The notes under the pieces are model-generated. The model searched no databases, was not told where the DNA came from, and saw nothing but the letters and a program-made list of their open reading frames with translations. Below are positions 7,207 through 64,000 of a stretch of DNA of 64,000 nt, piece after piece. The stretch covers positions 8,248,001 to 8,312,000 of the forward strand of contig OZ249436.1 of assembly GCA_965235115.1 (NCBI GenBank). The letters run 5' to 3'. Every line of letters begins with the position of its first letter. Within the stretch, counting starts at the first letter, position 1. This stretch comes from Laetmonice hystrix. Its lineage: Eukaryota. The position numbers and the translations under genes were made by a program.

Positions 7207-8273
7207 TACAACAGTAGCTAGTATTAGATCTATAGGGACGCCTCGTGTGTCATGTTTCATGCCTTTATTGTCCAGGAGGCAGGCCATACGTTTCGTCTAT
7301 CATCTACTACCATCTAATCTGTGTCCCCTACAGACTATCTGTAAGCGTCCGACAACGTTGTCAGGTCGTCCCAATGGCTGTTTGCCGTAAAGGTTTAATT
7401 AACAATGGCAAATGACGTTGTACGACTTTTGTATATCAGATATCCCATCCCCAAGTAACAAAAAATAAAGAAGATTGCAGAGATGTTGCAGGCAAAAAAC
7501 ACCAGGGTGCTCTAATGACGACTGCACTGCTACCTTCCGGCTACCGTTGGAATCACCACGTATATAAGCTTATAGGCTACCTGGCCGGGCTGGCGGGCAC
7601 CTGTGCCTCTTAAGCAAGCGACAGGTTAATGCAATGATAAGCGAAAAATGGCTACATTTTTGATACGTCAAATTGAAACTACGCCCCCCCCCCAAATTAT
7701 GATTCTTAGGCCTGATGTATAACTGTCAAACGCATCGGTCTCGTACGTTCGCTACAGATAAAAATGTTTGTGATATGCAGGCCTATATACTTTCCATTGG
7801 AATATCTTGTCCAAATTTTAACATTAGATGATCCTTGCCTGTACCTTTCATTTCCACTACCTCACTGTACTGTTTGCATAGGTACTAGGCCAGTCGGTAA
7901 GATGTAGGGACTTCCCACTCTACTGGTTGGCCTTCCACACGGCTTGGCCTCACAGTATACTGTTTGGCCTCACTCTACTGTTTGGCCTCACTGTAGTGTT
8001 CGCTTGGGTATACTAGGCCGGCCAGTACCTTGTAGGGATTCCTCACTGTACCGTTTGGCCTCCCTGTATTCCTTGGCCTCACTATACAACAGTAGCCAGT
8101 AGTATAGGGACGCCTCATGTGTCATGTTTCCATGCCTTTATTGTCCAGGAGGCAGGCCATAGAGGTCTACGTTTGGTCTATCATCTACTCCCATCTAATC
8201 TGTGTCCCCTACAGACTATCTGTAAGCGTCCGAAACCACGTTGTCAGGTCGTCCCAATGGCTGTTTGCCGTAA
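7207..8273 (-). repeat. Diverged inverted copy (~1.25 monomers) of the 845 bp satellite
   Basis: Its reverse complement aligns along the whole monomer. It is internally tandem: 7207-7390 recurs at about 8085-8273. It carries many substitutions and indels relative to the array. Confidence 0.95.
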
Positions 8274-8419: not shown

Positions 8420-8459
<40 letters not shown>

Positions 8460-8461
8460 TT
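8329..8461 (+). repeat. (CT)n-(CTTT)n microsatellite
   Basis: About 30 CTTT units with one interruption, read directly. Confidence 0.98.
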
Positions 8462-9530: not shown

Positions 9531-9906
9531 TATCGTCATCGGTATTTTCAGCTAGCAGTAACTTGGCAATAGAGCCAGATAGGGCCTTGAAGACAGATTG
9601 GAGTTATATATGGCCTTTAAAACCATTTTTAATTAGGTCACGTGACCCTACGTGACTCTATGACGTCATCGGTATTTTCAATTAGCAGTAACTTGGAAAT
9701 AGAGCCAGATAGGCCCATAGTTACTATTGAAGACAGATAGGAAGTCATTAGGCCTATGGCCTTTAAAATGACACAATTTTTAATTAGGTCACGTGACCCT
9801 ACGTGACTCTATGACGTCATCGGTACTTTCAATTAGCAATAACTTGGAAACAGAGCCAGATAGGCCTATAGTTACTATTATAGACAGATAGGAAGTCATA
9901 TATGGC
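9531..9906 (+). repeat. About 2.6 tandem copies of a 130-150 bp unit
   Basis: CGTCATCGGTA(T/C)TTTCA...GAGCCAGATAGG recurs near 9534, 9664 and 9815; TTTTTAATTAGGTCACGTGACCCTACGTGACTCTATGACG occurs twice. Confidence 0.9.
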
Positions 9907-9910
9907 GGCT

Positions 9911-36900: not shown

Positions 36901-39900
36901 GCTGCACCCTGGTGTTTCTTGCCTGCAAGATCCCTGTACTCTTTCTTTGTTTGTTTCTTACTTGGGGATGGGATATCTGATATAGAAAAGGCGCACAACG
37001 TCATTTGCCATTGTTAACTAAGCCTTTACGGCAAACAGTCATTGGGACGACCTGACAACGTTGTCTCACGCTTACAGATGGTCTGTAGGGGACACAGATT
37101 AGATGGGAGTAGATGCTAGACGAAACGCATGGCCTGCCTCCTGGACAATAAAGGCATGGAAACATGAAACATGAGGCGTCCCTATATTACTGGCTACTGT
37201 TGTATTCAAGCAAACGGTACAGGGAGGACAAACAGTACAGTGAGGAATCGCTACAAGGTACTGGCTGGCCTAGCACCCAAGCGAACACTACAGTGAGGCC
37301 AAAGAGTACAGTTAGGCCAAACAGCCAAGCAGTGTGGGCGGCCAACCGGTAGAGTGACAAGTCCCTCCATCTTACCGACTGGCCTAGTAGCCATGCAAAC
37401 ACTACAGTGAGGTAGTGGAAATGAAAGGTACAGGCGAGGACCATCTAATGTTAAAATCTGGAGAAGATACTCCAATGGGAAGTATACACATCACAACCAT
37501 CTGTAGCGAACGTACGAGACCTATACGTTTGACAGTTATACATCTGGCCTAAGAATCATAACTTTAGGGGGCGTAGTTACAATTTGACGTATCAGAAATG
37601 TAGCCATTTTTCGCTTCTCATTGCTTTAACCTAAGAGCCACAGGTGCCCGCCAGCCCGGCCAGGTATACGTGGTGATTCCATCGGTAGCCGGAAGATGGC
37701 AGTGCAGTCGCCGCTTTCGCCGCCGCTTCAGCAGAGCTGCGCTGCACCCTGGTGTTTCTTGCCTGCAAGATCTCTGTACTCTTTCTTTGTTTGTTTCTTA
37801 CTTGAGGATGGGATATCTGATATAGAAAAGGCGTACAACGTCATTTGCCATTGTTAACTAAGCCTTTACGGCAAACAGTCATTGGCACGAACTGACAACG
37901 TTGTCGCACGCTTACAGATGGTCTGTAGGGGACACAGATTAGATGGGAGTAGATGCTAGACGAAACGTATGGCCTGCCTCCTGGACAATAAAGGCATGGA
38001 AACATGAAACATGAGGCGTCCCTATATTACTGGCTACTGTTGTATTCAAGCAAACGGTACAGGGAGGACAAACAGTACAGTGAGGAATCGCTACAAGGTA
38101 CTGGCTGGCCTAGCACCCAAGCGAACACTACAGTGAGGCCAAAGAGTACAGTTAGGCCAAACAGCCAAGCAGTGTGGGCGGCCAACCAGTAGAGTGACAA
38201 GTCCCTACATCTTACCGACTGGCCTAGTAGCCATGCAAACACTACAGCGAGGTAGAAGAAATGAAAGCTACAGGCGAGGACCATCTAATGTTAAAATCTG
38301 GAGAAGATACTCCAATGGGAAGTATACACATCACAACCATATATCTGTAGCGAACGTACGAGACCTATACGTTTGACAGTTATACATCTGGCCTAAGAAT
38401 CATAACTTTAGGGGGCGTAGTTACAATTTGACGTATCAGAAATGTAGCCATTTTTTCGCTTCTCATTGCTTTAACCTAACAGCCACAGGTGCCCGCCAGC
38501 CCGGCCAGGTATACGTGGTGATTCCACCGGTAGCCGGAAGATGGCAGTGCAGTCGCCGCTTTCGCCGCCGCTTCAGTAGAGCTGCGCTGCACCCTGGTGT
38601 TTCTTGCCTGCAATATCCCTGTACTCTTTCTTTGTTTGTTTCTTACTTGGGGATGGGATATCTGATATAGAAAAGGCGCACAACGTCATTTGCCATTGTT
38701 AACTAAGCCTTTACGGCAAACAGTCATTGGGACGACCTGACAACGTTGTCTCACGCTTACAGATGGTCTGTAGGGGACACAGATTAGATGGGAGTAGATG
38801 CTAGACGAAACGTATGGCCTGCCTCCTGGACAATAAAGGCATGGAAACATGAAACATGAGGCGTCCCTATATTACTGGCTACTGTTGTATTCAAGCAAAC
38901 GGTACAGGGAGGACAAACAGTATGTGAGGAATCGCTACAAGGTACTGGCTGGCCTAGCACCCAAGCGAACACTACAGTGAGGCCACTACAGTCAGGCCAA
39001 ACAGTACACTGTGAGGCCAAGCAGTGTGGGCGGCCAACCAGTAGAGTGACAAATCCCTACATCTTACCGACTGGCCTAGGAGCCATGCAAACACTACAGT
39101 GAGGTAGTGGAAATAAAAGGTACAGGCGAGGACCATCTAATGTTAAAATCTGGAGAAGATACTCCAATGGGAAGTATACACATCACAACCATATATCTGT
39201 AGCGAACGTACGAGACCTATACGTTTGACAGTTATACATCTGGCCTAAGAATCATAACTTTAGGGTGCGTAGTTACAATTTGACGTATCAGAAATGTAGC
39301 AATTTTTTCGCTTCTCATTGCTTTAACCTAACAGCCACAGGTGCCCGCCAGCCCGGCCAGGTATACGTGGTGATTCCACCGGTAGCCGGAAGATGGCAGT
39401 GCAGTCGCCGCTTTCGCCGCCGCTTCAGTAGAGCTGCGCTGCACCCTGGTGTTTCTTGCCTGCAATATCCCTGTACTCTTTCTTTGTTTGTTTCTTACTT
39501 GGGGATGGGATATCTGATATAGAAAAGGCGTACAACGTCATTTGCCATTGTTAACTAAGCCTTTACGGCAAACAGTCATTGGGACGACCTGACGACGTTG
39601 TCGCACGCTTACAGATGGTCTGTAGGGGACACAGATTAGATGGGAGTAGATGCTAGACGAAACGTATGGCCTGCCTCCTGGACAATAAAGGCATGGAAAC
39701 ATGAAACATGAGGCGTCCCTATATTACTGGCTACTGTTGTATTCAAGCAAACGGTACAGGGAGGACAAACAGTACAGTGAGGAATCGCTACAAGGTACTG
39801 GCTGGCCTAGCACCCAAGCGAACACTACAGTGAGGCCAAAGAGTACAGTTAGGCCAAACAGCCAAGCAGTGTGGGCGGCCAACCAGTAGAGTGACAAGTC

Positions 39901-42900
39901 CCTACATCTTACCGACTTGCCCAGTAGCCATGCAAACACTACAGTGAGGTAGTGGAAATGAAAGGTACAGGCGAGGACCATCTAATGTTAAAATCTGGAG
40001 AAGATACTCCAATGGGAAGTATACACATCACAACCATATATCTGTAGCGAACGTACGAGACCTATACGTTTGACAGTTATACATCTGGCCTAAGAATCAT
40101 AACTTTAGGGGGCGTAGTTACAATTTGACGTATCAGAAATGTAGCCATTTTTTTCGCTTCTCATTGCTTTAACCTAAGAGCCACAGGTGCCCGCCAGCCC
40201 GGCCAGGTATACGTGGTGATTCCACCGGTAGCCGGAAGATGGCAGTGCAGTCGCCGCTTTCGCCGCCGCTTCAGTAGAGCTGCGCTGCACCCTGGTGTTT
40301 CTTGCCTGCAAGATCCCTGTACTCTTTCTTTGTTTGTTTCTTACTTGGGGATGGGATATCTGATATAGAAAAGGCGCACAACGTCATTTGCCATTGTTAA
40401 CTAAGCCTTTACGGCAAACAGTCATTGGGACGACCTGACAACGTTGTCTCACGCTTACAGATGGTCTGTAGGGGACACAGATTAGATGGGAGTAGATGCT
40501 AGACGAAACGTATGGCCTGCCTCCTGGACAATAAAGGCATGGAAACATGAAACATGAGGCGTCCCTATATTACTGGCTACTGTTGTATTCAAGCAAACGG
40601 TACAGGGAGGACAAACAGTATGTGAGGAATCGCTACAAGGTACTGGCTGGCCTAGCACCCAAGCGAACACTACAGTGAGGCCACTACAGTCAGGCCAAAC
40701 AGTACACTGTGAGGCCAAGCAGTGTGGGCGGCCAACCAGTAGAGTGACAAATCCCTACATCTTACCGACTGGCCTAGGAGCCATGCAAACACTACAGTGA
40801 GGTAGTGGAAATGAAAGGTACAGGCGAGGACCATCTAATGTTAAAATCTGGAGAAGATACTCCAATGGGAAGTATACACATCACAACCATCTGTAGCGAA
40901 CGTACGAGACCTATACGTTTGACAGTTATACATCTGGCCTAAGAATCATAACTTTAGGGGGCGTAGTTACAATTTGACGTATCAGAAATGTAGCCATTTT
41001 TCGCTTCTCATTGCTTTAACCTAAGAGCCACAGGTGCCCGCCAGCCCGGCCAGGTATACGTGGTGATTCCATCGGTAGCCGGAAGATGGCAGTGCAGTCG
41101 CCGCTTTCGCCGCCGCTTCAGCAGAGCTGCGCTGCACCCTGGTGTTTCTTGCCTGCAAGATCTCTGTACTCTTTCTTTGTTTGTTTCTTACTTGAGGATG
41201 GGATATCTGATATAGAAAAGGCGTACAACGTCATTTGCCATTGTTAACTAAGCCTTTACGGCAAACAGTCATTGGCACGAACTGACAACGTTGTCGCACG
41301 CTTACAGATGGTCTGTAGGGGACACAGATTAGATGGGAGTAGATGCTAGACGAAACGTATGGCCTGCCTCCTGGACAATAAAGGCATGGAAACATGAAAC
41401 ATGAGGCGTCCCTATATTACTGGCTACTGTTGTATTCAAGCAAACGGTACAGGGAGGACAAACAGTACAGTGAGGAATCGCTACAAGGTACTGGCTGGCC
41501 TAGCACCCAAGCGAACACTACAGTGAGGCCAAAGAGTACAGTTAGGCCAAACAGCCAAGCAGTGTGGGCGGCCAACCAGTAGAGTGACAAGTCCCTACAT
41601 CTTACCGACTTGCCCAGTAGCCATGCAAACACTACAGTGAGGTAGTGGAAATGAAAGGTACAGACGAGGACCATCTAATGTTAAAATCTGGAGAAGATAC
41701 TCCAATGGGAAGTATACACATCACAACCATATATCTGTAGCGAACGTACGAGACCTATACGTTTGACAGTTATACATCTGGCCTAAGAATCATAACTTTA
41801 GGGGGCGTAGTTACAATTTGACGTATCAGAAATGTAGCCATTTTTTTCGCTTCTCATTGCTTTAACCTAAGAGCCACAGGTGCCCGCCAGCCCGGCCAGG
41901 TATACGTGGTGATTCCACCGGTAGCCGGAAGATGGCAGTGCAGTCGCCGCTTTCGCCGCCGCTTCAGTAGAGCTGCGCTGCACCCTGGTGTTTCTTGCCT
42001 GCAAGATCCCTGTACTCTTTCTTTGTTTGTTTCTTACTTGGGGATGGGATATCTGATATAGAAAAGGCGCACAACGTCATTTGCCATTGTTAACTAAGCC
42101 TTTACGGCAAACAGTCATTGGGACGACCTGACAACGTTGTCTCACGCTTACAGATGGTCTGTAGGGGACACAGATTAGATGGGAGTAGATGCTAGACGAA
42201 ACGTATGGCCTGCCTCCTGGACAATAAAGGCATGGAAACATGAAACATGAGGCGTCCCTATATTACTGGCTACTGTTGTATTCAAGCAAACGGTACAGGG
42301 AGGACAAACAGTATGTGAGGAATCGCTACAAGGTACTGGCTGGCCTAGCACCCAAGCGAACACTACAGTGAGGCCACTACAGTCAGGCCAAACAGTACAC
42401 TGTGAGGCCAAGCAGTGTGGGCGGCCAACCAGTAGAGTGACAAATCCCTACATCTTACCGACTGGCCTAGGAGCCATGCAAACACTACAGTGAGGTAGTG
42501 GAAATGAAAGGTACAGGCGAGGACCATCTAATGTTAAAATCTGGAGAAGATACTCCAATGGGAAGTATACACATCACAACCATCTGTAGCGAACGTACGA
42601 GACCTATACGTTTGACAGTTATACATCTGGCCTAAGAATCATAACTTTAGGGGGCGTAGTTACAATTTGACGTATCAGAAATGTAGCCATTTTTCGCTTC
42701 TCATTGCTTTAACCTAAGAGCCACAGGTGCCCGCCAGCCCGGCCAGGTATACGTGGTGATTCCATCGGTAGCCGGAAGATGGCAGTGCAGTCGCCGCTTT
42801 CGCCGCCGCTTCAGCAGAGCTGCGCTGCACCCTGGTGTTTCTTGCCTGCAAGATCTCTGTACTCTTTCTTTGTTTGTTTCTTACTTGAGGATGGGATATC

Positions 42901-45900
42901 TGATATAGAAAAGGCGTACAACGTCATTTGCCATTGTTAACTAAGCCTTTACGGCAAACAGTCATTGGCACGAACTGACAACGTTGTCGCACGCTTACAG
43001 ATGGTCTGTAGGGGACACAGATTAGATGGGAGTAGATGCTAGACGAAACGTATGGCCTGCCTCCTGGACAATAAAGGCATGGAAACATGAAACATGAGGC
43101 GTCCCTATATTACTGGCTACTGTTGTATTCAAGCAAACGGTACAGGGAGGACAAACAGTACAGTGAGGAATCGCTACAAGGTACTGGCTGGCCTAGCACC
43201 CAAGCGAACACTACAGTGAGGCCAAAGAGTACAGTTAGGCCAAACAGCCAAGCAGTGTGGGCGGCCAACCAGTAGAGTGACAAGTCCCTACATCTTACCG
43301 ACTGGCCTAGTAGCCATGCAAACACTACAGCGAGGTAGAAGAAATGAAAGCTACAGGCGAGGACCATCTAATGTTAAAATCTGGAGAAGATACTCCAATG
43401 GGAAGTATACACATCACAACCATCTGTAGCGAACGTACGAGACCTATACGTTTGACAGTTATACATCTGGCCTAAGAATCATAACTTTAGGGGGCGTAGT
43501 TACAATTTGACGTATCAGAAATGTAGCCATTTTTTCGCTTCTCATTGCTTTAACCTAAGAGCCACAGGTGCCCGCCAGCCCGGCCAGGTATACGTGGTAA
43601 TTCCACCGGTAGCCGGAAGATGGCAGTGCAGTCGCCGCTTTCGCCGCCGCTTCAGTAGAGCTGCGCTGCACCCTGGTGTTTCTTGCCTGCAAGAACCCTG
43701 TACTCTTTCTTTGTTTGTTTCTTACTTGGGGATGGGATATCTGATATAGAAAAGGCGTACAACGTCATTTGCCATTGTTAACTAAGCCTTTACGGCAAAC
43801 AGTCATTGGGACGACCTGACAACGTTGTCTCACGCTTACAGATGGTCTGTAGGGGACACAGATTAGATGGGAGTAGATGCTAAACGAAACGTATGGCCTG
43901 CCTCCTGGACAATAAAGGCATGGAAACATGAAACATGAGGCGTCCCTATATTACTGGCTACTGTTGTATTCAAGCAAACGGTACAGGGAGGACAAACAGT
44001 AAAGTGAGGAATCGCTACAAGGTACTGGCTGGCCTAGCACCCAAGCGAACACTACAGTGAGGCCAAAGAGTACAGTCAGGCCAAACAGCCAAGCAGTGTG
44101 GGCGGCCAACCAGTATAGTAACAAGTCCCTACATCTTACCGACTGGCCTAGTAGCCATGCAAACACTACAGTGAGGTAGTGGAAATGAAAGGTACAGGCG
44201 AGGACCATCTAATGTTAAAATCTGGAGAAGATACTCCAATGGGAAGTATACACATCACAACCATATATCTGTAGCGAACGTACGAGACCTATACGTTTGA
44301 CAGTTATACATCTGGCCTAAGAATCATAACTTTAGGGGGCGTAGTTACAATTTGACGTATCAGAAATGTAGCCATTTTTTTCGCTTCTCATTGCTTTAAC
44401 CTAAGAGCCACAGGTGCCCGCCAGCCCGGCCAGGTATACGTGGTGATTCCACCGGTAGCCGGAAGATGGCAGTAGCCGGAAGATGGCAGTGCAGTCGCCG
44501 CTTTCGCCGCCGCTTCAGTAGAGCTGCGCTGCACCCTGGTGTTTCTTGCCTGCAAGATCTCTGTACTCTTTCTTTGTTTGTTTCTTACTTGGGGATGGGA
44601 TATCTGATATAGAAAAGGCGTACAACGTCATTTGCCATTGTTAACTAAGCCTTTACGGCAAACAATCATTGGGACGACCTGACAACGTTGTCTCACGCTT
44701 ACAGATGGTCTGTAGGGGACACAGATTAGATGGGAGTAGATGATAGACGAAACGTATGGCCTGCCTCCTGGACAATAAAGGCATGGAAACATGAAACATG
44801 AGGCGTCCCTATATTACTGGCTACTGTTGTATTCAAGCAAACGGTACAGGGAGGACAAACAGTACAGTGAGGAATCGCTACAAGGTACTGGCTGGCCTAG
44901 CACCCAAGCGAACACTACAGTGAGGCCAAAGAGTACAGTTAGGCCAAACAGCCAAGCAGTGTGGGCGGCCAACCAGTAGAGTGACAAGTCCCTACATCTT
45001 ACCGACTGGCCTAGTAGCCATGCAAACACTACAGCGAGGTAGAAGAAATGAAAGCTACAGGCGAGGACCATCTAATGTTAAAATCTGGAGAAGATACTCC
45101 AATGGGAAGTATACACATCACAACCATCTGTAACGAACGTACGAGACCTATACGTTTGACAGTTATACATCTGGCCTAAGAATCATAACTTTAGGGGGCG
45201 TAGTTACAATTTGACGTATCAGAAATGTAGCCATTTTTTCGCTTCTCATTGCTTTAACCTAAGAGCCACAGGTGCCCGCCAGCCCGGCCAGGTATACGTG
45301 GTAATTCCACCGGTAGCCGGAAGATGGCAGTGCAGTCGCCGCTTTCGCCGCCGCTTCAGTAGAGCTGCGCTGCACCCTGGTGTTTCTTGCCTGCAAGATC
45401 CCTGTACTCTTTCTTTGTTTGTTTCTTACTTGGGGATGGGATATCTGATATAGAAAAGGCGTACAACGTCATTTGCCATTGTTAACTAAGCCTTTACGGC
45501 AAACAGTCATTGGGACGACCTGACAACGTTGTCTCACGCTTACAGATGGTCTGTAGGGGACACAGATTAGATGGGAGTAGATGCTAAACGAAACGTATGG
45601 CCTGCCTCCTGGACAATAAAGGCATGGAAACATGAAACATGAGGCGTCCCTATATTACTGGCTACTGTTGTATTCAAGCAAACGGTACAGGGAGGACAAA
45701 CAGTAAAGTGAGGAATCGCTACAAGGTACTGGCTGGCCTAGCACCCAAGCGAACACTACAGTGAGGCCAAAGAGTACAGTCAGGCCAAACAGCCAAGCAG
45801 TGTGGGCGGCCAACCAGTATAGTAACAAGTCCCTACATCTTACCGACTGGCCTAGTAGCCATGCAAACACTACAGTGAGGTAGTGGAAATGAAAGGTACA

Positions 45901-48900
45901 GGCGAGGACCATCTAATGTTAAAATCTGGAGAAGATACTCCAATGGGAAGTATACACATCACAACCATATATCTGTAGCGAACGTACGAGACCTATACGT
46001 TTGACAGTTATACATCTGGCCTAAGAATCATAACTTTAGGGGGCGTAGTTACAATTTGACGTATCAGAAATGTAGCCATTTTTTTCGCTTCTCATTGCTT
46101 TAACCTAAGAGCCACAGGTGCCCGCCAGCCCGGCCAGGTATACGTGGTGATTCCATCGGTAGCCGGAAGATGGCAGTGCAGTCGCCGCTTTCGCCGCCGC
46201 TTCAGCAGAGCTGCGCTGCACCCTGGTGTTTCTTGCCTGCAAGATCTCTGTACTCTTTCTTTGTTTGTTTCTTACTTGAGGATGGGATATCTGATATAGA
46301 AAAGGCGTACAACGTCATTTGCCATTGTTAACTAAGCCTTTACGGCAAACAGTCATTGGCACGAACTGACAACGTTGTCGCACGCTTACAGATGGTCTGT
46401 AGGGGACACAGATTAGATGGGAGTAGATGATAGACGAAACGTATGGCCTGCCTCCTGGACAATAAAGGCATGGAAACATGAAACATGAGGCGTCCCTATA
46501 TTACTGGCTACTGTTGTATTCAAGCAAACGGTACAGGGAGGACAAACAGTACAGTGAGGAATCGCTACAAGGTACTGGCTGGCCTAGCACCCAAGCGAAC
46601 ACTACAGTGAGGGCACTACAGTCAGGCCAAACAGTACACTGTGAGGCCAAGCAGTGTGGGCGGCCAACCAGTAGAGTGACAAATCCCTGCATCTTACCGA
46701 CTGGCCTAGTAGCCATGCAAACACTACAGTGAGGTAGTGGAAATGAAAGGTACTGGCGAGGACCATCTAATGTTAAAATCTGGAGAAGATACTCAAATGG
46801 GAAGTATACACATCAGAACCATATATATCTGTAGCGAACGTACGGGACCTATACGTTTGACAGTTATACATCTGGCCTAAGAATCATAACTTTAGGGGGC
46901 GTAGTTACAATTTGACGTATCAGAAATGTAGCCATTTTTTCGCTACTCATTGCTCTAACCTAAGAGCCACAGGTGCCCGCCAGCCCGGCCAGGTATACGT
47001 GGTGATTCCACCGGTAGCCGGAAGATGGCAGTGCAGTCGCCGCTTTCGCCGCCGCTTCAGTAGAGCTGCGCTGCACCCTGGTGTTTCTTGCCTGCAAGAT
47101 CCCTGTACTCTTTCTTTGTTTGTTTCTTACTTGGGGATGGGATATCTGATATAGAAAAGCCGTACAACGTCATTTGCCATTGTTAATTAAGCCTTTAGAG
47201 CAAACACACATTGGGACGACCTGACGACGTTGTCGCACGCTTACAGATGGTCTGTAGGGGACACAGATTAGATGGGAGTAGATGCTAGACGAAACGTATG
47301 GCCTGCCTCCTGGACAATAAAGGCATGGAAACATGAAACATAAGGCGTCCCTATATTACTGGCTACTGTTGTAATCAAGCAAACGGTACAGGGAGGACAA
47401 ACAGTACAGTAAGGAATCGCTACAAGGTACTGGCTGGCCTAGCACCCAAGCGAACACTACAGTGAGGCCAAAGAGTACAGTCAGGCCAAACAGCCAAGCA
47501 GTGTGGGCGGCCAACCAGTAGAGTGACAAGTCCCTACATCTTACCGACTGGTCTAGTAGCCATGCAAACACTACAGTGAGGTAGTGGAAATGAAAGGTAC
47601 AGGCGAGGACCATCTAATGTTACAATCTGGAGAAGATACTCCAATGGGAAGTATACACATCACAACCATATATCTGTAGCGAACGTACGAGACCTATACG
47701 TTTGACAGTTATACATCTGGCCTAAGAATCATAACTTTAGGGGGCGTAGTTACAATTTGACGTATCAGAAATGTAGCCATTTTTCGCTTCTCATTGCTTT
47801 AACCTAAGAGCCACAGGTGCCCGCCAGCCCGGCCAGGTATACGTGGTGATTCCATCGGTAGCCGGAAGATGGCAGTGCAGTCGCCGCTTTCGCCGCCGCT
47901 TCAGCAGAGCTGCGCTGCACCCTGGTGTTTCTTGCCTGCAAGATCTCTGTACTCTTTCTTTGTTTGTTTCTTACTTGAGGATGGGATATCTGATATAGAA
48001 AAGGCGTACAACGTCATTTGCCATTGTTAACTAAGCCTTTACGGCAAACAGTCATTGGCACGAACTGACAACGTTGTCGCACGCTTACAGATGGTCTGTA
48101 GGGGACACAGATTAGATGGGAGTAGATGATAGACGAAACGTATGGCCTGCCTCCTGGACAATAAAGGCATGGAAACATGAAACATGAGGCGTCCCTATAT
48201 TACTGGCTACTGTTGTATTCAAGCAAACGGTACAGGGAGGACAAACAGTACAGTGAGGAATCGCTACAAGGTACTGGCTGGCCTAGCACCCAAGCGAACA
48301 CTACAGTGAGGGCACTACAGTCAGGCCAAACAGTACACTGTGAGGCCAAGCAGTGTGGGCGGCCAACCAGTAGAGTGACAAATCCCTGCATCTTACCGAC
48401 TGGCCTAGTAGCCATGCAAACACTACAGTGAGGTAGTGGAAATGAAAGGTACAGGCGAGGACCATCTAATGTTAAAATCTGGAGAAGATACTCCAATGGG
48501 AAGTATACACATCACAACCATATATCTGTAGCGAACGTACGAGACCTTAACGTTTGACAGTTATACATCTGGCCTAAGAATCATAACTTTAGGGGGCGTA
48601 GTTACAATTTGACGTATCAGAAATGTAGCCATTTTTCGCTTCTCATTGCTTTAACCTAAGAGCCACAGGTGCCCGCCAGCCCGGCCAGGTATACGTGGTG
48701 ATTCCATCGGTAGCCGGAAGATGGCAGTGCAGTCGCCGCTTTCGCCGCCGCTTCAGTAGAGCTGCGCTGCACCCTGGTGTTTCTTGCCTGCAAGATCCCT
48801 GTACTCTTTCTTTGTTTGTTTCTTACTTGGGGATGTGATATCTGATATAGAAAAGGCGTACAACGTCATTTGCCATTGTTAACTAAGCCTTTACGGCAAA

Positions 48901-51900
48901 CCGTCATTGGGACGACCTGACGACGTTGTCGCACGCTTACAGATGGTCTGTAGGGGACACAGATTAGATGGGAGTAGATGCTAGACGAAACGTATGGCCT
49001 GCCTCCTGGACCATAAGGGCATGGAAACATGAAACATGAGGCGTCCCGATATTACTGGCTACTGTTGTATTCAAGCAAACGGTACAGGGAGGACAAACAG
49101 TACAGTGAGGAATCGCTACAAGGTACTGGCTGGCCTAGCACCCAAGCGAACACTACAGTGAGGGCACTACAGTCAGGCCAAACAGTACACTGTGAGGCCA
49201 AGCAGTGTGGGCGGCCAACTAGTAGAGTGACAAATCCCTGCATCTTACCGACTGCCCTAGTAGCCATGCAAAGATTACAGTGAGGTAGTGGAAATGAAAG
49301 GTACAGGCGAGGACCATCTAATGTTAAAATCTGGAGAAGATACTTCAATGGGAAGTATACACATCACAAGCATATATCTGTAGCGAACGTACGAGACCTA
49401 TACGTTTGACAGTTATACATCTGGCCTTAGAATAATAACTTTAGGGGGCGTAGTTACAATTTGACGTATCAGAAATGTAGCCATTTTTCGCTTCTCATTG
49501 CTTTAACCTAAGAGCCACAGGTGCCCGCCAGCCCGGCCAGGTATACGTGGTGATTCCATCGGTAGCCGGAAGATGGCAGTGCAGTCGCCGCTTTCGCCGC
49601 CGCTTCAGCAGAGCTGCGCTGCACCCTGGTGTTTCTTGCCTGCAAGATCTCTGTACTCTTTCTTTGTTTGTTTCTTACTTGAGGATGGGATATCTGATAT
49701 AGAAAAGGCGTACAACGTCATTTGCCATTGTTAACTAAGCCTTTACGGCAAACAGTCATTGGCACGAACTGACAACGTTGTCGCACGCTTACAGATGGTC
49801 TGTAGGGGACACAGATTAGATAGGAGTAGATGCTAGACGAAACGTATGGCCTGCCTCCTGGACAATAAAGGCATGAAAACATGAAACATGAGGCGTCCCT
49901 ATATTACTGGCTACTGTTGTATTCAAGCAAACGGTACAGGGAGGACAAACAGTACAGTGAGGAATCGCTACAAGGTACTGGCTGGCCTAGCACCCAAGCG
50001 AACACTACAGTGAGGCCAAAGAGTACAGTCAGGCCAAACAGCCAAGCAGTGTGGGCGGCCAACCAGTAGAGTGACAAGTCCCTACATCTTACCGACTGGT
50101 CTAGTAGCTATGCAAACACTACAGTGAGGTAGTGGAAATGAAAGGTACAGGCGAGGACCATCTAATGTTAAAATCTGGAGAAGATACTCTATCAATGGGA
50201 AGTATACACATCACAACCATATATCTGTAGCGAACGTACGAGACCTATACGTTTGACAGTTATACATCTGGCCTAAGAATCATAACTTTAGGGGGCGTAG
50301 TTACAATTTGACGTATCAGAAATGTAGCCATTTTTCGCTTCTCATTGCTTTAACCTAAGAGCCACAGGTGCCCGCCAGCCCGGCCAGGTATACGTGGTGA
50401 TTCCATCGGTAGCCGGAAGATGGCAGTGCAGTGGCCGCTTTCGCCGCCGCTTCAGTAGAGCTGCGCTGCACCCTGGTGTTTCTTGCCTGCAAGATCTCTG
50501 TACTCTTTCTTTGTTTGTTTCTTACTTGAGGATGGGATATCTGATATAGAAAAGGCGTACAACGTCATTTGCCATTGTTAACTAAGCCTTTACGGCAAAC
50601 AGTCATTGGCACGAACTGACAACGTTGTCGGACGCTTACAGATGGTCTGTAGGGGACACAGATTAGATGGGAGTAGATGCTAGACGAAACGTATGGCCTG
50701 CCTCCTGGACAATAAAGGCATGGAAACATGAAACATGAGGCGTCCCTATATTACTGGCTACTGTTGTATTCAAGCAAACGGTACAGGAAGGACAAACAGT
50801 ACAGTGAGGAATCGCTACAAGGTACTGGCTGGCCTAGCACCCAAGCGAACACTACAGTGAGGCCAAAGAGTACAGTCAGGCCAAACAGCCAAGCAGTAGC
50901 CAGTAATATAGGTTAAAATCTGGAGAAGATACTCAAATGGGAAGTATACACATCAGAACCATATATATCTGTAGCGAACGTACGGGACCTATACGTTTGA
51001 CAGTTATACATCTGGCCTAAGAATCATAACTTTAGGGGGCGTAGTTACAATTTGACGTATCAGAAATGTAGCCATTTTTTCGCTACTCATTGCTCTAACC
51101 TAAGAGCCACAGGTGCCCGCCAGCCCGGCCAGGTATACGTGGTGATTCCACCGGTAGCCGGAAGATGGCAGTGCAGTCGCCGCTTTCGCCGCCGCTTCAG
51201 TAGAGCTGCGCTGCACCCTGGTGTTTCTTGCCTGCAAGATCCCTGTACTCTTTCTTTGTTTGTTTCTTACTTGGGGATGGGATATCTGATATAGAAAAGC
51301 CGTACAACGTCATTTGCCATTGTTAATTAAGCCTTTAGAGCAAACACACATTGGGACGACCTGACGACGTTGTCGCACGCTTACAGATGGTCTGTAGGGG
51401 ACACAGATTAGATGGGAGTAGATGCTAGACGAAACGTATGGCCTGCCTCCTGGACAATAAAGGCATGGAAACATGAAACATAAGGCGTCCCTATATTACT
51501 GGCTACTGTTGTAATCAAGCAAACGGTACAGGGAGGACAAACAGTACAGTAAGGAATCGCTACAAGGTACTGGCTGGCCTAGCACCCAAGCGAACACTAC
51601 AGTGAGGCCAAAGAGTACAGTCAGGCCAAACAGCCAAGCAGTGTGGGCGGCCAACCAGTAGAGTGACAAGTCCCTACATCTTACCGACTGGTCTAGTAGC
51701 CATGCAAACACTACAGTGAGGTAGTGGAAATGAAAGGTACAGGCGAGGACCATCTAATGTTACAATCTGGAGAAGATACTCCAATGGGAAGTATACACAT
51801 CACAACCATATATCTGTAGCGAACGTACGAGACCTATACGTTTGACAGTTTTACATCTGGCCTAAGAATCATAACTTTAGGGGACGTAGTTACAATTTGA

Positions 51901-54900
51901 CGTATCAGAAATGTAGCCATTTTTCGCTTCTCATTGCTTTAACCTAAGAGCCACAGGTGCCCGCCAGCCCGGCCAGGTATACGTGGTGATTCCACCGGTA
52001 GCCGGAAGATGGCAGTGCAGTCGCCGCTTTCGCCGCCGCTTCAGTAGAGCTGCGCTGCACCCTGGTGTTTCTTGCCTGCAAGATCCCTGTACTCTTTCTT
52101 TGTTTGTTTCTTACTTGGGGATGTGATATCTGATATAGAAAAGGCGTACAACGTCATTTGCCATTGTTAACTAAGCCTTTACGGCAAACCGTCATTGGGA
52201 CGACCTGACGACGTTGTCGCACGCTTACAGATGGTCTGTAGGGGACACAGATTAGATGGGAGTAGATGCTAGACGAAACGTATGGCCTGCCTCCTGGACC
52301 ATAAGGGCATGGAAACATGAAACATGAGGCGTCCCGATATTACTGGCTACTGTTGTATTCAAGCAAACGGTACAGGGAGGACAAACAGTACAGTGAGGAA
52401 TCGCTACAAGGTACTGGCTGGCCTAGCACCCAAGCGAACACTACAGTGAGGGCACTACAGTCAGGCCAAACAGTACACTGTGAGGCCAAGCAGTGTGGGC
52501 GGCCAACTAGTAGAGTGACAAATCCCTGCATCTTACCGACTGCCCTAGTAGCCATGCAAAGATTACAGTGAGGTAGTGGAAATGAAAGGTACAGGCGAGG
52601 ACCATCTAATGTTAAAATCTGGAGAAGATACTTCAATGGGAAGTATACACATCACAAGCATATATCTGTAGCGAACGTACGAGACCTATACGTTTGACAG
52701 TTATACATCTGGCCTTAGAATAATAACTTTAGGGGGCGTAGTTACAATTTGACGTATCAGAAATGTAGCCATTTTTCGCTTCTCATTGCTTTAACCTAAG
52801 AGCCACAGGTGCCCGCCAGCCCGGCCAGGTATACGTGGTGATTCCATCGGTAGCCGGAAGATGGCAGTGCAGTCGCCGCTTTCGCCGCCGCTTCAGCAGA
52901 GCTGCGCTGCACCCTGGTGTTTCTTGCCTGCAAGATCTCTGTACTCTTTCTTTGTTTGTTTCTTACTTGAGGATGGGATATCTGATATAGAAAAGGCGTA
53001 CAACGTCATTTGCCATTGTTAACTAAGCCTTTACGGCAAACAGTCATTGGCACGAACTGACAACGTTGTCGCACGCTTACAGATGGTCTGTAGGGGACAC
53101 AGATTAGATAGGAGTAGATGCTAGACGAAACGTATGGCCTGCCTCCTGGACAATAAAGGCATGGAAACATGAAACATGAGGCGTCCCTATATTACTGGCT
53201 ACTGTTGTATTCAAGCAAACGGTACAGGGAGGACAAACAGTACAGTGAGGAATCGCTACAAGGTACTGGCTGGCCTAGCACCCAAGCGAACACTACAGTG
53301 AGGCCAAAGAGTACAGTCAGGCCAAACAGCCAAGCAGTGTGGGCGGCCAACCAGTAGAGTGACAAGTCCCTACATCTTACCGACTGGTCTAGTAGCCATG
53401 CAAACACTACAGTGAGGTAGTGGAAATGAAAGGTACAGGCGAGGACCATCTAATGTTAAAATCTGGAGAAGATACTCTATCAATGGGAAGTATACACATC
53501 ACAACCATATATCTGTAGCGAACGTACGAGACCTATACGTTTGACAGTTATACATCTGGCCTAAGAATCATAACTTTAGGGGGCGTAGTTACAATTTGAC
53601 GTATCAGAAATGTAGCCATTTTTCGCTTCTCATTGCTTTAACCTAAGAGCCACAGGTGCCCGCCAGCCCGGCCAGGTATACGTGGTGATTCCATCGGTAG
53701 CCGGAAGATGGCAGTGCAGTGGCCGCTTTCGCCGCCGCTTCAGTAGAGCTGCGCTGCACCCTGGTGTTTCTTGCCTGCAAGATCTCTGTACTCTTTCTTT
53801 GTTTGTTTCTTACTTGAGGATGGGATATCTGATATAGAAAAGGCGTACAACGTCATTTGCCATTGTTAACTAAGCCTTTACGGCAAACAGTCATTGGCAC
53901 GAACTGACAACGTTGTCGGACGCTTACAGATGGTCTGTAGGGGACACAGATTAGATGGGAGTAGATGCTAGACGAAACGTATGGCCTGCCTCCTGGACAA
54001 TAAAGGCATGGAAACATGAAACATGAGGCGTCCCTATATTACTGGCTACTGTTGTATTCAAGCAAACGGTACAGGAAGGACAAACAGTACAGTGAGGAAT
54101 CGCTACAAGGTACTGGCTGGCCTAGCACCCAAGCGAACACTACAGTGAGGCCAAAGAGTACAGTCAGGCCAAACAGCCAAGCAGTAGCCAGTAATATAGG
54201 TTAAAATCTGGAGAAGATACTCAAATGGGAAGTATACACATCAGAACCATATATATCTGTAGCGAACGTACGGGACCTATACGTTTGACAGTTATACATC
54301 TGGCCTAAGAATCATAACTTTAGGGGGCGTAGTTACAATTTGACGTATCAGAAATGTAGCCATTTTTTCGCTACTCATTGCTCTAACCTAAGAGCCACAG
54401 GTGCCCGCCAGCCCGGCCAGGTATACGTGGTGATTCCACCGGTAGCCGGAAGATGGCAGTGCAGTCGCCGCTTTCGCCGCCGCTTCAGTAGAGCTGCGCT
54501 GCACCCTGGTGTTTCTTGCCTGCAAGATCCCTGTACTCTTTCTTTGTTTGTTTCTTACTTGGGGATGGGATATCTGATATAGAAAAGCCGTACAACGTCA
54601 TTTGCCATTGTTAATTAAGCCTTTAGAGCAAACACACATTGGGACGACCTGACGACGTTGTCGCACGCTTACAGATGGTCTGTAGGGGACACAGATTAGA
54701 TGGGAGTAGATGCTAGACGAAACGTATGGCCTGCCTCCTGGACAATAAAGGCATGGAAACATGAAACATAAGGCGTCCCTATATTACTGGCCACTGTTGT
54801 AATCAAGCAAACGGTACAGGGAGGACAAACAGTACAGTAAGGAATCGCTACAAGGTACTGGCTGGCCTAGCACCCAAGCGAACACTACAGTGAGGCCAAA

Positions 54901-57900
54901 GAGTACAGTCAGGCCAAACAGCCAAGCAGTGTGGGCGGCCAACCAGTAGAGTGATAAGTCCCTACATCTTACCGACTGGTCTAGTAGCCATGCAAACACT
55001 ACAGTGAGGTAGTGGAAATGAAAGGTACAGGCGAGGACCATCTAATGTTACAATCTGGAGAAGATACTCCAATGGGAAGTATACACATCACAACCATATA
55101 TCTGTAGCGAACGTACGAGACCTATACGTTTGACAGTTTTACATCTGGCCTAAGAATCATAACTTTAGGGGACGTAGTTACAATTTGACGTATCAGAAAT
55201 GTAGCCATTTTTCGCTTCTCATTGCTTTAACCTAAGAGCCACAGGTGCCCGCCAGCCCGGCCAGGTATACGTGGTGATTCCACCGGTAGCCGGAAGATGG
55301 CAGTGCAGTCGCCGCTTTCGCCGCCGCTTCAGTAGAGCTGCGCTGCACCCTGGTGTTTCTTGCCTGCAAGATCCCTGTACTCTTTCTTTGTTTGTTTCTT
55401 ACTTGGGGATGTGATATCTGATATAGAAAAGGCGTACAACGTCATTTGCCATTGTTAACTAAGCCTTTACGGCAAACCGTCATTGGGACGACCTGACGAC
55501 GTTGTCGCACGCTTACAGATGGTCTGTAGGGGACACAGATTAGATGGGAGTAGATGCTAGACGAAACGTATGGCCTGCCTCCTGGACCATAAGGGCATGG
55601 AAACATGAAACATGAGGCGTCCCGATATTACTGGCTACTGTTGTATTCAAGCAAACGGTACAGGGAGGACAAACAGTACAGTGAGGAATCGCTACAAGGT
55701 ACTGGCTGGCCTAGCACCCAAGCGAACACTACAGTGAGGGCACTACAGTCAGGCCAAACAGTACACTGTGAGGCCAAGCAGTGTGGGCGGCCAACTAGTA
55801 GAGTGACAAATCCCTGCATCTTACCGACTGCCCTAGTAGCCATGCAAAGATTACAGTGAGGTAGTGGAAATGAAAGGTACAGGCGAGGACCATCTAATGT
55901 TAAAATCTGGAGAAGATACTTCAATGGGAAGTATACACATCACAAGCATATATCTGTAGCGAACGTACGAGACCTATACGTTTGACAGTTATACATCTGG
56001 CCTTAGAATAATAACTTTAGGGGGCGTAGTTACAATTTGACGTATCAGAAATGTAGCCATTTTTCGCTTCTCATTGCTTTAACCTAAGAGCCACAGGTGC
56101 CCGCCAGCCCGGCCAGGTATACGTGGTGATTCCATCGGTAGCCGGAAGATGGCAGTGCAGTCGCCGCTTTCGCCGCCGCTTCAGCAGAGCTGCGCTGCAC
56201 CCTGGTGTTTCTTGCCTGCAAGATCTCTGTACTCTTTCTTTGTTTGTTTCTTACTTGAGGATGGGATATCTGATATAGAAAAGGCGTACAACGTCATTTG
56301 CCATTGTTAACTAAGCCTTTACGGCAAACAGTCATTGGCACGAACTGACAACGTTGTCGCACGCTTACAGATGGTCTGTAGGGGACACAGATTAGATAGG
56401 AGTAGATGCTAGACGAAACGTATGGCCTGCCTCCTGGACAATAAAGGCATGGAAACATGAAACATGAGGCGTCCCTATATTACTGGCTACTGTTGTATTC
56501 AAGCAAACGGTACAGGGAGGACAAACAGTACAGTGAGGAATCGCTACAAGGTACTGGCTGGCCTAGCACCCAAGCGAACACTACAGTGAGGCCAAAGAGT
56601 ACAGTCAGGCCAAACAGCCAAGCAGTGTGGGCGGCCAACCAGTAGAGTGACAAGTCCCTACATCTTACCGACTGGTCTAGTAGCCATGCAAACACTACAG
56701 TGAGGTAGTGGAAATGAAAGGTACAGGCGAGGACCATCTAATGTTAAAATCTGGAGAAGATACTCTATCAATGGGAAGTATACACATCACAACCATATAT
56801 CTGTAGCGAACGTACGAGACCTATACGTTTGACAGTTATACATCTGGCCTAAGAATCATAACTTTAGGGGGCGTAGTTACAATTTGACGTATCAGAAATG
56901 TAGCCATTTTTCGCTTCTCATTGCTTTAACCTAAGAGCCACAGGTGCCCGCCAGCCCGGCCAGGTATACGTGGTGATTCCATCGGTAGCCGGAAGATGGC
57001 AGTGCAGTGGCCGCTTTCGCCGCCGCTTCAGTAGAGCTGCGCTGCACCCTGGTGTTTCTTGCCTGCAAGATCTCTGTACTCTTTCTTTGTTTGTTTCTTA
57101 CTTGAGGATGGGATATCTGATATAGAAAAGGCGTACAACGTCATTTGCCATTGTTAACTAAGCCTTTACGGCAAACAGTCATTGGCACGAACTGACAACG
57201 TTGTCGGACGCTTACAGATGGTCTGTAGGGGACACAGATTAGATGGGAGTAGATGCTAGACGAAACGTATGGCCTGCCTCCTGGACAATAAAGGCATGGA
57301 AACATGAAACATGAGGCGTCCCTATATTACTGGCTACTGTTGTATTCAAGCAAACGGTACAGGAAGGACAAACAGTACAGTGAGGAATCGCTACAAGGTA
57401 CTGGCTGGCCTAGCACCCAAGCGAACACTACAGTGAGGCCAAAGAGTACAGTCAGGCCAAACAGCCAAGCAGTAGCCAGTAATATAGGTTAAAATCTGGA
57501 GAAGATACTCAAATGGGAAGTATACACATCAGAACCATATATATCTGTAGCGAACGTACGGGACCTATACGTTTGACAGTTATACATCTGGCCTAAGAAT
57601 CATAACTTTAGGGGGCGTAGTTACAATTTGACGTATCAGAAATGTAGCCATTTTTTCGCTACTCATTGCTCTAACCTAAGAGCCACAGGTGCACGCCAGC
57701 CCGGCCAGGTATACGTGGTGATTCCACCGGTAGCCGGAAGATGGCAGTGCAGTCGCCGCTTTCGCCGCCGCTTCAGTAGAGCTGCGCTGCACCCTGGTGT
57801 TTCTTGCCTGCAAGATCCCTGTACTCTTTCTTTGTTTGTTTCTTACTTGGGGATGGGATATCTGATATAGAAAAGCCGTACAACGTCATTTGCCATTGTT

Positions 57901-60900
57901 AATTAAGCCTTTAGAGCAAACACACATTGGGACGACCTGACGACGTTGTCGCACGCTTACAGATGGTCTGTAGGGGACACAGATTAGATGGGAGTAGATG
58001 CTAGACGAAACGTATGGCCTGCCTCCTGGACAATAAAGGCATGGAAACATGAAACATAAGGCGTCCCTATATTACTGGCTACTGTTGTAATCAAGCAAAC
58101 GGTACAGGGAGGACAAACAGTACAGTAAGGAATCGCTACAAGGTACTGGCTGGCCTAGCACCCAAGCGAACACTACAGTGAGGCCAAAGAGTACAGTCAG
58201 GCCAAACAGCCAAGCAGTGTGGGCGGCCAACCAGTAGAGTGACAAGTCCCTACATCTTACCGACTGGTCTAGTAGCCATGCAAACACTACAGTGAGGTAG
58301 TGGAAATGAAAGGTACAGGCGAGGACCATCTAATGTTACAATCTGGAGAAGATACTCCAATGGGAAGTATACACATCACAACCATATATCTGTAGCGAAC
58401 GTACGAGACCTATACGTTTGACAGTTTTACATCTGGCCTAAGAATCATAACTTTAGGGGACGTAGTTACAATTTGACGTATCAGAAATGTAGCCATTTTT
58501 CGCTTCTCATTGCTTTAACCTAAGAGCCACAGGTGCCCGCCAGCCCGGCCAGGTATACGTGGTGATTCCACCGGTAGCCGGAAGATGGCAGTGCAGTCGC
58601 CGCTTTCGCCGCCGCTTCAGTAGAGCTGCGCTGCACCCTGGTGTTTCTTGCCTGCAAGATCCCTGTACTCTTTCTTTGTTTGTTTCTTACTTGGGGATGT
58701 GATATCTGATATAGAAAAGGCGTACAACGTCATTTGCCATTGTTAACTAAGCCTTTACGGCAAACCGTCATTGGGACGACCTGACGACGTTGTCGCACGC
58801 TTACAGATGGTCTGTAGGGGACACAGATTAGATGGGAGTAGATGCTAGACGAAACGTATGGCCTGCCTCCTGGACCATAAGGGCATGGAAACATGAAACA
58901 TGAGGCGTCCCGATATTACTGGCTACTGTTGTATTCAAGCAAACGGTACAGGGAGGACAAACAGTACAGTGAGGAATCGCTACAAGGTACTGGCTGGCCT
59001 AGCACCCAAGCGAACACTACAGTGAGGGCACTACAGTCAGGCCAAACAGTACACTGTGAGGCCAAGCAGTGTGGGCGGCCAACTAGTAGAGTGACAAATC
59101 CCTGCATCTTACCGACTGCCCTAGTAGCCATGCAAAGATTACAGTGAGGTAGTGGAAATGAAAGGTACAGGCGAGGACCATCTAATGTTAAAATCTGGAG
59201 AAGATACTTCAATGGGAAGTATACACATCACAAGCATATATCTGTAGCGAACGTACGAGACCTATACGTTTGACAGTTATACATCTGGCCTTAGAATAAT
59301 AACTTTAGGGGGCGTAGTTACAATTTGACGTATCAGAAATGTAGCCATTTTTCGCTTCTCATTGCTTTAACCTAAGAGCCACAGGTGCCCGCCAGCCCGG
59401 CCAGGTATACGTGGTGATTCCATCGGTAGCCGGAAGATGGCAGTGCAGTCGCCGCTTTCGCCGCCGCTTCAGCAGAGCTGCGCTGCACCCTGGTGTTTCT
59501 TGCCTGCAAGATCTCTGTACTCTTTCTTTGTTTGTTTCTTACTTGAGGATGGGATATCTGATATAGAAAAGGCGTACAACGTCATTTGCCATTGTTAACT
59601 AAGCCTTTACGGCAAACAGTCATTGGCACGAACTGACAACGTTGTCGCACGCTTACAGATGGTCTGTAGGGGACACAGATTAGATAGGAGTAGATGCTAG
59701 ACGAAACGTATGGCCTGCCTCCTGGACAATAAAGGCATGGAAACATGAAACATGAGGCGTCCCTATATTACTGGCTACTGTTGTATTCAAGCAAACGGTA
59801 CAGGGAGGACAAACAGTACAGTGAGGAATCGCTACAAGGTACTGGCTGGCCTAGCACCCAAGCGAACACTACAGTGAGGCCAAAGAGTACAGTCAGGCCA
59901 AACAGCCAAGCAGTGTGGGCGGCCAACCAGTAGAGTGACAAGTCCCTACATCTTACCGACTGGTCTAGTAGCCATGCAAACACTACAGTGAGGTAGTGGA
60001 AATGAAAGGTACAGGCGAGGACCATCTAATGTTAAAATCTGGAGAAGATACTCTATCAATGGGAAGTATACACATCACAACCATATATCTGTAGCGAACG
60101 TACGAGACCTATACGTTTGACAGTTATACATCTGGCCTAAGAATCATAACTTTAGGGGGCGTAGTTACAATTTGACGTATCAGAAATGTAGCCATTTTTC
60201 GCTTCTCATTGCTTTAACCTAAGAGCCACAGGTGCCCGCCAGCCCGGCCAGGTATACGTGGTGATTCCATCGGTAGCCGGAAGATGGCAGTGCAGTGGCC
60301 GCTTTCGCCGCCGCTTCAGTAGAGCTGCGCTGCACCCTGGTGTTTCTTGCCTGCAAGATCTCTGTACTCTTTCTTTGTTTGTTTCTTACTTGAGGATGGG
60401 ATATCTGATATAGAAAAGGCGTACAACGTCATTTGCCATTGTTAACTAAGCCTTTACGGCAAACAGTCATTGGCACGAACTGACAACGTTGTCGCACGCT
60501 TACAGATGGTCTGTAGGGGACACAGATTAGATAGGAGTAGATGCTAGACGAAACGTATGGCCTGCCTCCTGGACAATAAAGGCATGGAAACATGAAACAT
60601 GAGGCGTCCCTATATTACTGGCTACTGTTGTATTCAAGCAAACGGTACAGGGAGGACAAACAGTACAGTGAGGAATCGCTACAAGGTACTGGCTGGCCTA
60701 GCACCCAAGCGAACACTACAGTGAGGCCAAAGAGTACAGTCAGGCCAAACAGCCAAGCAGTGTGGGCGGCCAACCAGTAGAGTGACAAGTCCCTACATCT
60801 TACCGACTGGTCTAGTAGCCATGCAAACACTACAGTGAGGTAGTGGAAATGAAAGGTACAGGCGAGGACCATCTAATGTTAAAATCTGGAGAAGATACTC

Positions 60901-63900: not shown

Positions 63901-64000
63901 TATTACTGGCTACTGTTGTATTCAAGCAAACGGTACAGGGAGGACAAACAGTACAGTGAGGAATCGCTACAAGGTACTGGCTGGCCTAGCACCCAAGCGA
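9911..64000 (+). repeat. Tandem satellite array, monomer ~845 bp (mostly 840-863 bp; one 745 bp variant), 64 full copies plus a partial, open at the window end
   Basis: The monomer begins TACAACGTCATTTGCC and ends GATATAGAAAAGGCG. ORF-track anchors recur every ~845 bp; copies differ by a few shared SNPs and short indels. Confidence 0.99.
48859..64000 (+). repeat. Higher-order repeat domain: 3288 bp tetramer (852+847+745+844) three times, then a 4135 bp pentamer variant, then a partial unit
   Basis: Variant-specific anchors at 49029, 52317, 55605 and 58893 (spacing 3288), then 63028 (spacing 4135). The short monomer recurs at 50728, 54016, 57304 and 61439. Confidence 0.95.

What the first reader, a model, noticed from the sequence alone, without database searches (positions are those of the whole stretch)
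50894..50912. Inverted templated insertion at the HOR junction: signature of polymerase template switching
Relative to a normal monomer, 116 bp are replaced by AGCCAGTAATATAG. With its flanks, CAGTAGCCAGTAATATAGG (50894-50912) is the exact reverse complement of CCTATATTACTGGCTACTG at 50745-50763, about 130 bp upstream. Microhomology is 4 bp (CAGT) on entry and 1 bp (G) on exit. Known: short locally templated inverted insertions with microhomology typify polymerase theta-mediated end joining and MMBIR/FoSTeS. The scar is copied into every complete HOR unit (54186, 57474, 61609) and creates a new 19 bp inverted repeat in each.
Basis: partly seen in the sequence, partly recalled or inferred. Interest (0 to 1): 0.7.

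Follow-up and report, generated by a model that had tools for sequence, protein, structure and literature searches.

The report
Template-switch scar in young satellite repeat
In a long satellite DNA array, a 14-letter patch copied backwards from the repeat itself marks a one-off repair join of a well-known kind, and this join may be the very event that started a new four-unit repeat block.

Summary
In an ~847-bp satellite, 4 of 63 full monomers have 116 bp replaced by 14 bp. With 4+1 flanking bases, this patch is an exact 19-bp reverse complement of a site in the monomer (chance about 6e-6). It is a textbook single inverted template switch, as in Pol theta/snap-back SD-MMEJ or a replication switch; sequence cannot name the enzyme. 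Three corrections: the donor 19-mer occurs at 58 of 65 array sites, so '130 bp upstream' is only the nearest; 'entry' and 'exit' are interchangeable; and the loop exceeds the 30-bp SD-MMEJ criterion. New here: the monomer type that follows each scar first appears at 46772 behind an intact, different monomer, so the higher-order block starts within 23 bp of the scar exit (0.7% by chance). The scar may therefore be the junction of the ~3.3-kb tandem duplication that founded the block (about 55%) rather than an in-place deletion (about 38%). Alt-EJ origin of such duplications is already proposed for maize CentC and shown outside satellites in worms. Public contigs support the intact monomer as the common form but neither confirm nor refute the scar. 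The scan's notes showed no earlier report of this.

The parts
50894..50912 (+). First scar: 4-bp flank match + 14-bp filler (50898-50911) + 1-bp flank match; right arm of a new 19-bp inverted repeat
50745..50763 (-). Nearest possible template of the filler (left arm); the same 19-mer is at 58 of 65 donor sites in the array
54182..54200 (+). Second scar copy (template-site copy at 54033-54051)
57470..57488 (+). Third scar copy (template-site copy at 57321-57339)
61605..61623 (+). Fourth scar copy (template-site copy at 61456-61474)
46772..47710 (+). 939-bp exact copy of the sequence that follows the scar (monomer m43 plus the start of m44), with no scar in front; left edge of the higher-order block. 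First private allele at 46795, 23 bp after the position equivalent to the scar exit
46656..46771 (+). Intact 116-bp segment of monomer m42, which is not of the scar-bearing monomer type
46772..50911 (+). First unit, 4140 bp, five monomers (m43-m47); m44 and m45 (47622-49325) are mosaics that stand for the single monomer m49 of later units
50912..57487 (+). Two 3288-bp four-monomer units (847+852+844+745)
57488..61622 (+). 4135-bp unit with one extra monomer (m59, 60034-60880), an in-register hybrid of the scar-type 5' part and the preceding type's 3' part
61623..64000 (+). Fifth unit, cut by the window end; the right end of the block is not visible
9907..64000 (+). Satellite array, 63 full anchor-to-anchor monomers: 59 of 840-863 bp and 4 scarred ones of 745 bp
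7207..8273 (-). Diverged inverted relic of the same satellite (81-87% identity); imperfect candidate donor

Best explanation
The scar records one non-homologous join that closed a tandem duplication and so founded the higher-order repeat. Step 1 (inferred): a break or collapsed fork at the m42|m43 border; the 3' end is extended on the sister through about four monomers and stops 116 bp short of a whole number. Step 2 (shown as a sequence relation; direction not shown): an end ending in CAGT pairs with an inverted ACTG site of a monomer and 15 bases are copied. Step 3 (inferred): the end is released and joined with 1 bp of homology to the start of m43, which duplicates about 3.3 kb out of register. 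Step 4 (shown): ordinary in-register exchanges then multiply the unit with its scar and later alter single units (m44/m45, m59). Pol theta-type end joining is the somewhat likelier enzyme route (about 55%, against about 40% for a replication-fork or MMBIR switch); this is inference from published signatures. The scar has no evident function.
For: Filler is an exact inverted copy, P about 6e-6. m43 equals m48 at every column and carries 16 columns private to that type, the first 23 bp after the scar exit, yet it follows an intact monomer of another type. A uniformly placed edge would fall there in 23 of 3288 bp, 0.7%. The exact match between units 1 and 2 starts at 46772/50912. m45 is the only one of 21 T242 monomers that lacks the linked T350/A382/C463/A468 alleles, as expected if it is a later hybrid inside unit 1. 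The primer side extends to 7 bp with a 1-nt bulge and ranks second among upstream sites for the last 8 nt; mismatch-containing primers are accepted for Pol theta (PMC13015775, passages). TMEJ-closed tandem duplications of about 0.1-10 kb with occasional templated insertions are shown in helq-1 worms, and mostly 10-20 kb ones in brc-1/brd-1 worms (PMC8654963, PMC7368036, passages). Loose ends in 3 of 4 laid runs read the intact 116-bp segment before 50912, so the long monomer is the common and presumably ancestral form.
Against: Unit 1 is not a clean copy: identity with unit 2 breaks after 939 bp and resumes in m45. m42 and m44 differ at only 3 places, which also fits m43 having been copied in later between two sister monomers. 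A large heterology can itself stop a conversion tract, so 0.7% overstates the case. In worms no TD was seen in 240 wild-type generations, and in brc-1/brd-1 mutants TDs were about tenfold rarer than deletions. The fold-back pair is not favoured in the pre-event strand (pair probability 0.0002), and a closer site at about 50822 pairs better with the last 10-12 nt. The template lies about 150 bp from the join, beyond the 30-bp SD-MMEJ criterion. No listed contig crosses the scar.
Confidence: 0.53

Rival explanations
1. The same template switch was a plain in-place deletion-insertion (116 bp out, 14 bp in) in one monomer. The four-monomer unit arose separately by in-register exchange, its real left edge lies inside m45, and m43 is a later copy whose tract stopped at the scar.
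For: Deletions are the commoner TMEJ outcome. m42 and m44 are near-identical (3 differences) and flank m43. Continuous identity with later units runs only from m45 onward. In Arabidopsis, all 56 large centromeric indels in the mutation-accumulation lines and all but one of 275 in natural lines kept the repeat register (10.1101/2025.06.02.657473, passages).
Against: It needs about five events against about three, and an edge within 23 bp of the scar exit by chance or by a barrier effect. It must also explain the unique recombinant state of m45.
Confidence: 0.38
2. The filler is not from a short copying step but is the remnant of a larger inversion, or of an exchange with an inverted copy of the satellite elsewhere, later trimmed to 14 bp.
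For: An inverted relic lies at 7207-8273 with an 18/19 match. The family is very abundant: about 50,000 contigs were laid in each of two runs, so exact inverted donors probably exist.
Against: The relic has a mismatch inside the filler. All four scars are identical with no longer inverted form. It needs two rare events.
Confidence: 0.06
3. Assembly or sequencing artefact.
For: No read or contig evidence for the junction was obtained.
Against: Four copies sit in units that differ by private substitutions (3 in 11,563 bp) and by whole monomers (3288, 3288, 4135 bp). The scar is always tied to one monomer haplotype.
Confidence: 0.03

Closest known systems
Snap-back SD-MMEJ (McVey lab; PMC5728401, passages read)
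   Same: An inverted primer repeat, short synthesis and a microhomology repeat together create a new, longer inverted repeat containing the insertion.
   Different: The template is about 150 bp from the join, not within 30 bp. The locus is a natural satellite, with no genetic test.
TMEJ-closed tandem duplications in C. elegans brc-1/brd-1 and helq-1 mutants (PMC7368036, PMC8654963, passages read)
   Same: Kilobase head-to-tail duplication whose junction has minute microhomology and sometimes a templated insertion.
   Different: There they are repair-mutant events shown to need polq-1. Here the duplication reading is inferred, the array is natural, and the junction was amplified afterwards.
Short-range template switch, four-point model (Loytynoja and Goldman; Walker et al. 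PMC7954356, passages read)
   Same: Order 3-2-1-4 with one reverse-complement fragment giving a single inverted repeat, a majority pattern in apes. The model is mechanism-agnostic.
   Different: Point 4 lies 116 bp ahead, or about 3.3 kb behind if it is a duplication. The donor is ambiguous because the sequence is repeated.
Maize CentC higher-order repeats as adjacent duplications (Wolfgruber et al. PMC4806543, passages read)
   Same: Proposes alternative end joining, naming Pol theta, for adjacent duplications that yield higher-order repeats.
   Different: In the passages read, the CentC evidence is adjacency and homology-mediated monomer loss; no templated inverted filler at a CentC duplication edge appeared. 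The whole text and supplements were not read.
In-register BIR/unequal-exchange models of HOR origin (10.1101/731471; PMC8997354; 10.1101/2025.06.02.657473; PMC13011684; passages read)
   Same: They explain the later multiplication of the unit and the hybrid monomers m44, m45 and m59.
   Different: These are homology-driven and keep monomer length. This junction does not.

Membership tests
SD-MMEJ-consistent junction (PMC5728401) | Repeat motif (primer + insert + microhomology) of at least 4 bp | tested here: met
   19 bp (criterion)
SD-MMEJ-consistent junction (PMC5728401) | Primer repeat and microhomology repeat each at least 1 bp | tested here: met
   4 bp and 1 bp
SD-MMEJ-consistent junction (PMC5728401) | Break-distal end of the motif within 30 bp of the join | tested here: not met
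   The nearest template ends at 50745, about 150 bp from the join. It works like snap-back but is not filed as SD-MMEJ.
TMEJ templated insertion | Insertion of at least 5 nt identical to sequence in the immediate vicinity of the junction | tested here: inconclusive
   14 nt, exact, nearest copy 130 bp away; 58 equal donors; no distance threshold seen in the passages read
TMEJ templated insertion | Dependence on polymerase theta | not testable with these tools
   Needs genetics; no genome is held even to look for the gene
TMEJ-closed tandem duplication | Junction joins the end of a segment to its own start, with the original copy upstream lacking the junction | tested here: inconclusive
   Left side fits (m42|m43); unit 1 is internally altered and the right end lies beyond the window
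Short-range template switch (four-point model) | Derived sequence = left flank + reverse-complement fragment of nearby ancestral sequence + right flank | tested here: met
   model passages
MMBIR/FoSTeS | Replicative restart from a stalled or collapsed fork, often with several switches (description from PMC13015775 and PMC7403614 passages) | not testable with these tools
   Only one switch out and one back is visible; fork state leaves no mark in sequence
Higher-order repeat | Multi-monomer unit repeated with units more alike than their monomers (definition as in PMC8997354 passage and own knowledge) | tested here: met
   3 private differences in 11,563 bp among copies of units 2-5, against 19 differences from m43 to its nearest other type and a mean of 11.3 among m00-m42

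The most novel reading that the evidence does not exclude
This is a preserved birth certificate of a higher-order repeat: one out-of-register duplication, closed by a Pol theta-like template switch, seeded a new multi-monomer unit that homology-driven exchange then amplified. If such scars mark the edges of young HOR blocks more widely, HOR birth and HOR growth use different repair pathways, and the scars give datable markers.
Probability: 0.5. Interest if true: 0.45.

Novelty: new member of a known kind. Interest (0 to 1): 0.3.

Why it matters
How higher-order repeats first arise in satellite arrays is mostly argued from models, because in-register events leave no junction. A templated-insertion junction at the edge of a very young block would be direct sequence evidence that end joining can found one, as proposed for maize. 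It also suggests a cheap screen: look for scarred monomers whose downstream neighbour first appears unscarred at the block edge. As a single case in one array it is an illustration, not a new mechanism, and the scar type itself is common.

Tried and rejected
No genome is held, so the right end of the block, other scar copies and the POLQ gene could not be examined. Run search: 10 runs listed, 2 holding half or more of the words, all as contigs; I laid 4 of the 10. No listed piece or joint crosses the scar, but 98,248 pieces were not shown. All contigs covering 50433 read another letter than the scar-type monomer's private allele, so these runs look like other individuals or relatives; this is no evidence against the scar. 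An exact scan of metagenome contigs gave 0 hits for the scar and 0 for the normal junction used as control, so it is uninformative. Direct-strand origin of the filler was rejected: best + strand match in a normal monomer is 9 of 14. m59 as the unscarred ancestor was rejected: its 3' part is of the m50 type. Screen for other scars: none of 28 other distinct variant clusters had an inverted match spanning the cluster longer than 11 bp. A pre-formed hairpin favouring the switch was not supported. Rfam found 0 matches in 1-13000, which includes several monomers. Four ORFs of 100 aa or more in 1-11300 were listed and not pursued. Literature searches for a templated insertion founding a satellite HOR listed 5, 17, 3, 2 and 5 papers; none of the titles, abstract starts or passages I read describes such a case, but the library covers open-access papers only and no supplements were read. 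Scan notes: nothing by words or by sequence.

Full report
Setting. From about 9907 to the end, the window is a tandem array with 63 full monomers; 59 are 840-863 bp and four are 745 bp. A diverged inverted relic lies at 7207-8273. No genome is held. The family is a very abundant repeat in one coded organism, with about 50,000 contigs laid per run in two runs of one sample. An unchecked scan note calls the genome a spiralian invertebrate.

Observation. All stated facts hold: exact 19-bp reverse complement, 130-bp gap, 116 bp replaced by 14 bp, perfect flank matches of 4 and 1 bp, four copies. None of 20,000 random 14-mers matched a monomer over more than 12 bp, and the analytic chance is 6e-6. 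The best direct-strand match is 9 of 14. None of 28 other variant clusters has a comparable inverted match. The filler is therefore templated, and it is a one-off in this array.

The template sequence is exact at 58 of 65 sites, so any of those monomers on the opposite strand could be the donor. The relic is a worse donor, at 18 of 19. Direction cannot be read from sequence: on the other strand the 1-bp side primes and the 4-bp side closes. The 4-bp side extends to 7 bp with one bulge, but a closer site pairs better with a longer tail and the fold-back is not favoured at equilibrium. By the published three-part test the junction meets two criteria for SD-MMEJ and fails the 30-bp distance. It fits the mechanism-agnostic four-point template-switch model, order 3-2-1-4. 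Pol theta, MMBIR and fork switching are not separable here.

What the neighbours add. Every scar is followed by one distinctive monomer type (m48, m52, m56, m61) with 16 private columns. Its first copy, m43, is identical to m48 but is preceded by an intact monomer, m42, that does not resemble the scar-bearing type. The first private allele is 23 bp after the scar exit, so the block's left edge lies in 23 of 3288 bp, 0.7% if edges were uniform. This is what a tandem duplication predicts: the original start has no junction and every later start has one. On this reading nothing was deleted; copying ran about four monomers, stopped 116 bp short of register, made the short inverted excursion and rejoined at its own start. 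A displaced kilobase-long single strand would also make a 130-nt loop available (inference).

Evidence the other way. Unit 1 is 4140 bp, not 3288; its identity to unit 2 breaks after 939 bp and resumes inside m45. m42 and m44 differ at three places only. One can therefore read m43 as a later copy placed between two sister monomers, its tract halted by the scar, with the true edge inside m45 and the scar an ordinary deletion. That needs more events, and m45 is the single recombinant among 21 T242 monomers, which fits a later change in unit 1. But deletions are the commoner outcome in worms. I put the two readings at about 0.53 and 0.38.

Age and spread. Copies of units 2-5 carry 3 private differences in 11,563 bp, against a mean of 11.3 differences per pair over about 760 columns among m00-m42, so the block is far younger than the array's monomer types. 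No mutation rate is available for an absolute date. m59 is an in-register hybrid, showing that homology-driven exchange went on after the scar formed.

Outside data. In 3 of 4 laid runs, loose ends before 50912 read the intact segment, so the long monomer is the common form. No listed contig crosses the scar, most pieces were not shown, and the scar-type allele at 50433 was absent, so the scar is neither confirmed nor refuted. Metagenome scans were empty for both scar and control.

Comparison with print (passages only, no supplements). Snap-back insertions that create inverted repeats: PMC5728401. Short template switches in apes: PMC7954356. Pol theta-dependent tandem duplications with occasional templated insertions: PMC7368036 and PMC8654963. 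Mismatch-tolerant priming: PMC13015775. Alternative end joining proposed for adjacent duplications that give CentC HORs: PMC4806543, also summarised in PMC8997354. Microhomology junctions copied among satellite clusters: PMC7403614. In-register models and data: 10.1101/731471, 10.1101/2025.06.02.657473, PMC13011684. Five searches showed no paper describing an inverted templated filler at the founding junction of a satellite HOR, within an open-access library and at the depth stated.

Verdict. Real, and a known kind of scar. Its modest interest lies in the position: it is roughly even odds that it marks the birth of this higher-order repeat, an idea already in print but seldom visible in sequence. 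The end of the block, just outside the window, should decide it.

Noticed in passing
window 10289-10303: A 15-bp insertion between two ATC in the first partial monomer. Only a 7-bp piece matches nearby sequence (direct), which is chance level; it could be a patchwork repair insertion.
   Followed up: partly
window 9534-9907: The array starts abruptly mid-monomer after a 151-bp tandem repeat (about 2.5 copies) whose tail also matches 1551-1616 inverted; perhaps another repeat or mobile element.
   Followed up: no
window 7207-8273 (-): About 1.2 diverged monomers of the same satellite in opposite orientation, 1.6 kb from the array start.
   Followed up: partly
window 44455-44490: Perfect 17-bp tandem duplication in monomer m40 only.
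   Followed up: partly
window 50170-50200 and copies (m47, m51, m55, m59, m60): A 3-bp insertion that creates a tiny GATA/TATC inverted repeat; could be a mini snap-back but is at chance level.
   Followed up: partly
window 11112-43400: Many in-register block duplications among m00-m42 (for example 3727 bp exact at 20586/26507, a seven-monomer offset), with no junction scars.
   Followed up: partly
window 2465-3337, 5218-5818, 112-238: Inverted-repeat pairs (205-bp arms at 84%, 38-bp arms at 95%, 28-29-bp arms) that look like miniature inverted-repeat elements or hairpins.
   Followed up: no
each monomer, e.g. 49928-50030: Internal ~18-bp sub-repeats, with two alternative forms of the sub-repeat block among monomers; the scar's left break sits at the end of this block.
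   Followed up: no
window 8332-8460: (TCTT)32 microsatellite between the relic and the array.
   Followed up: no
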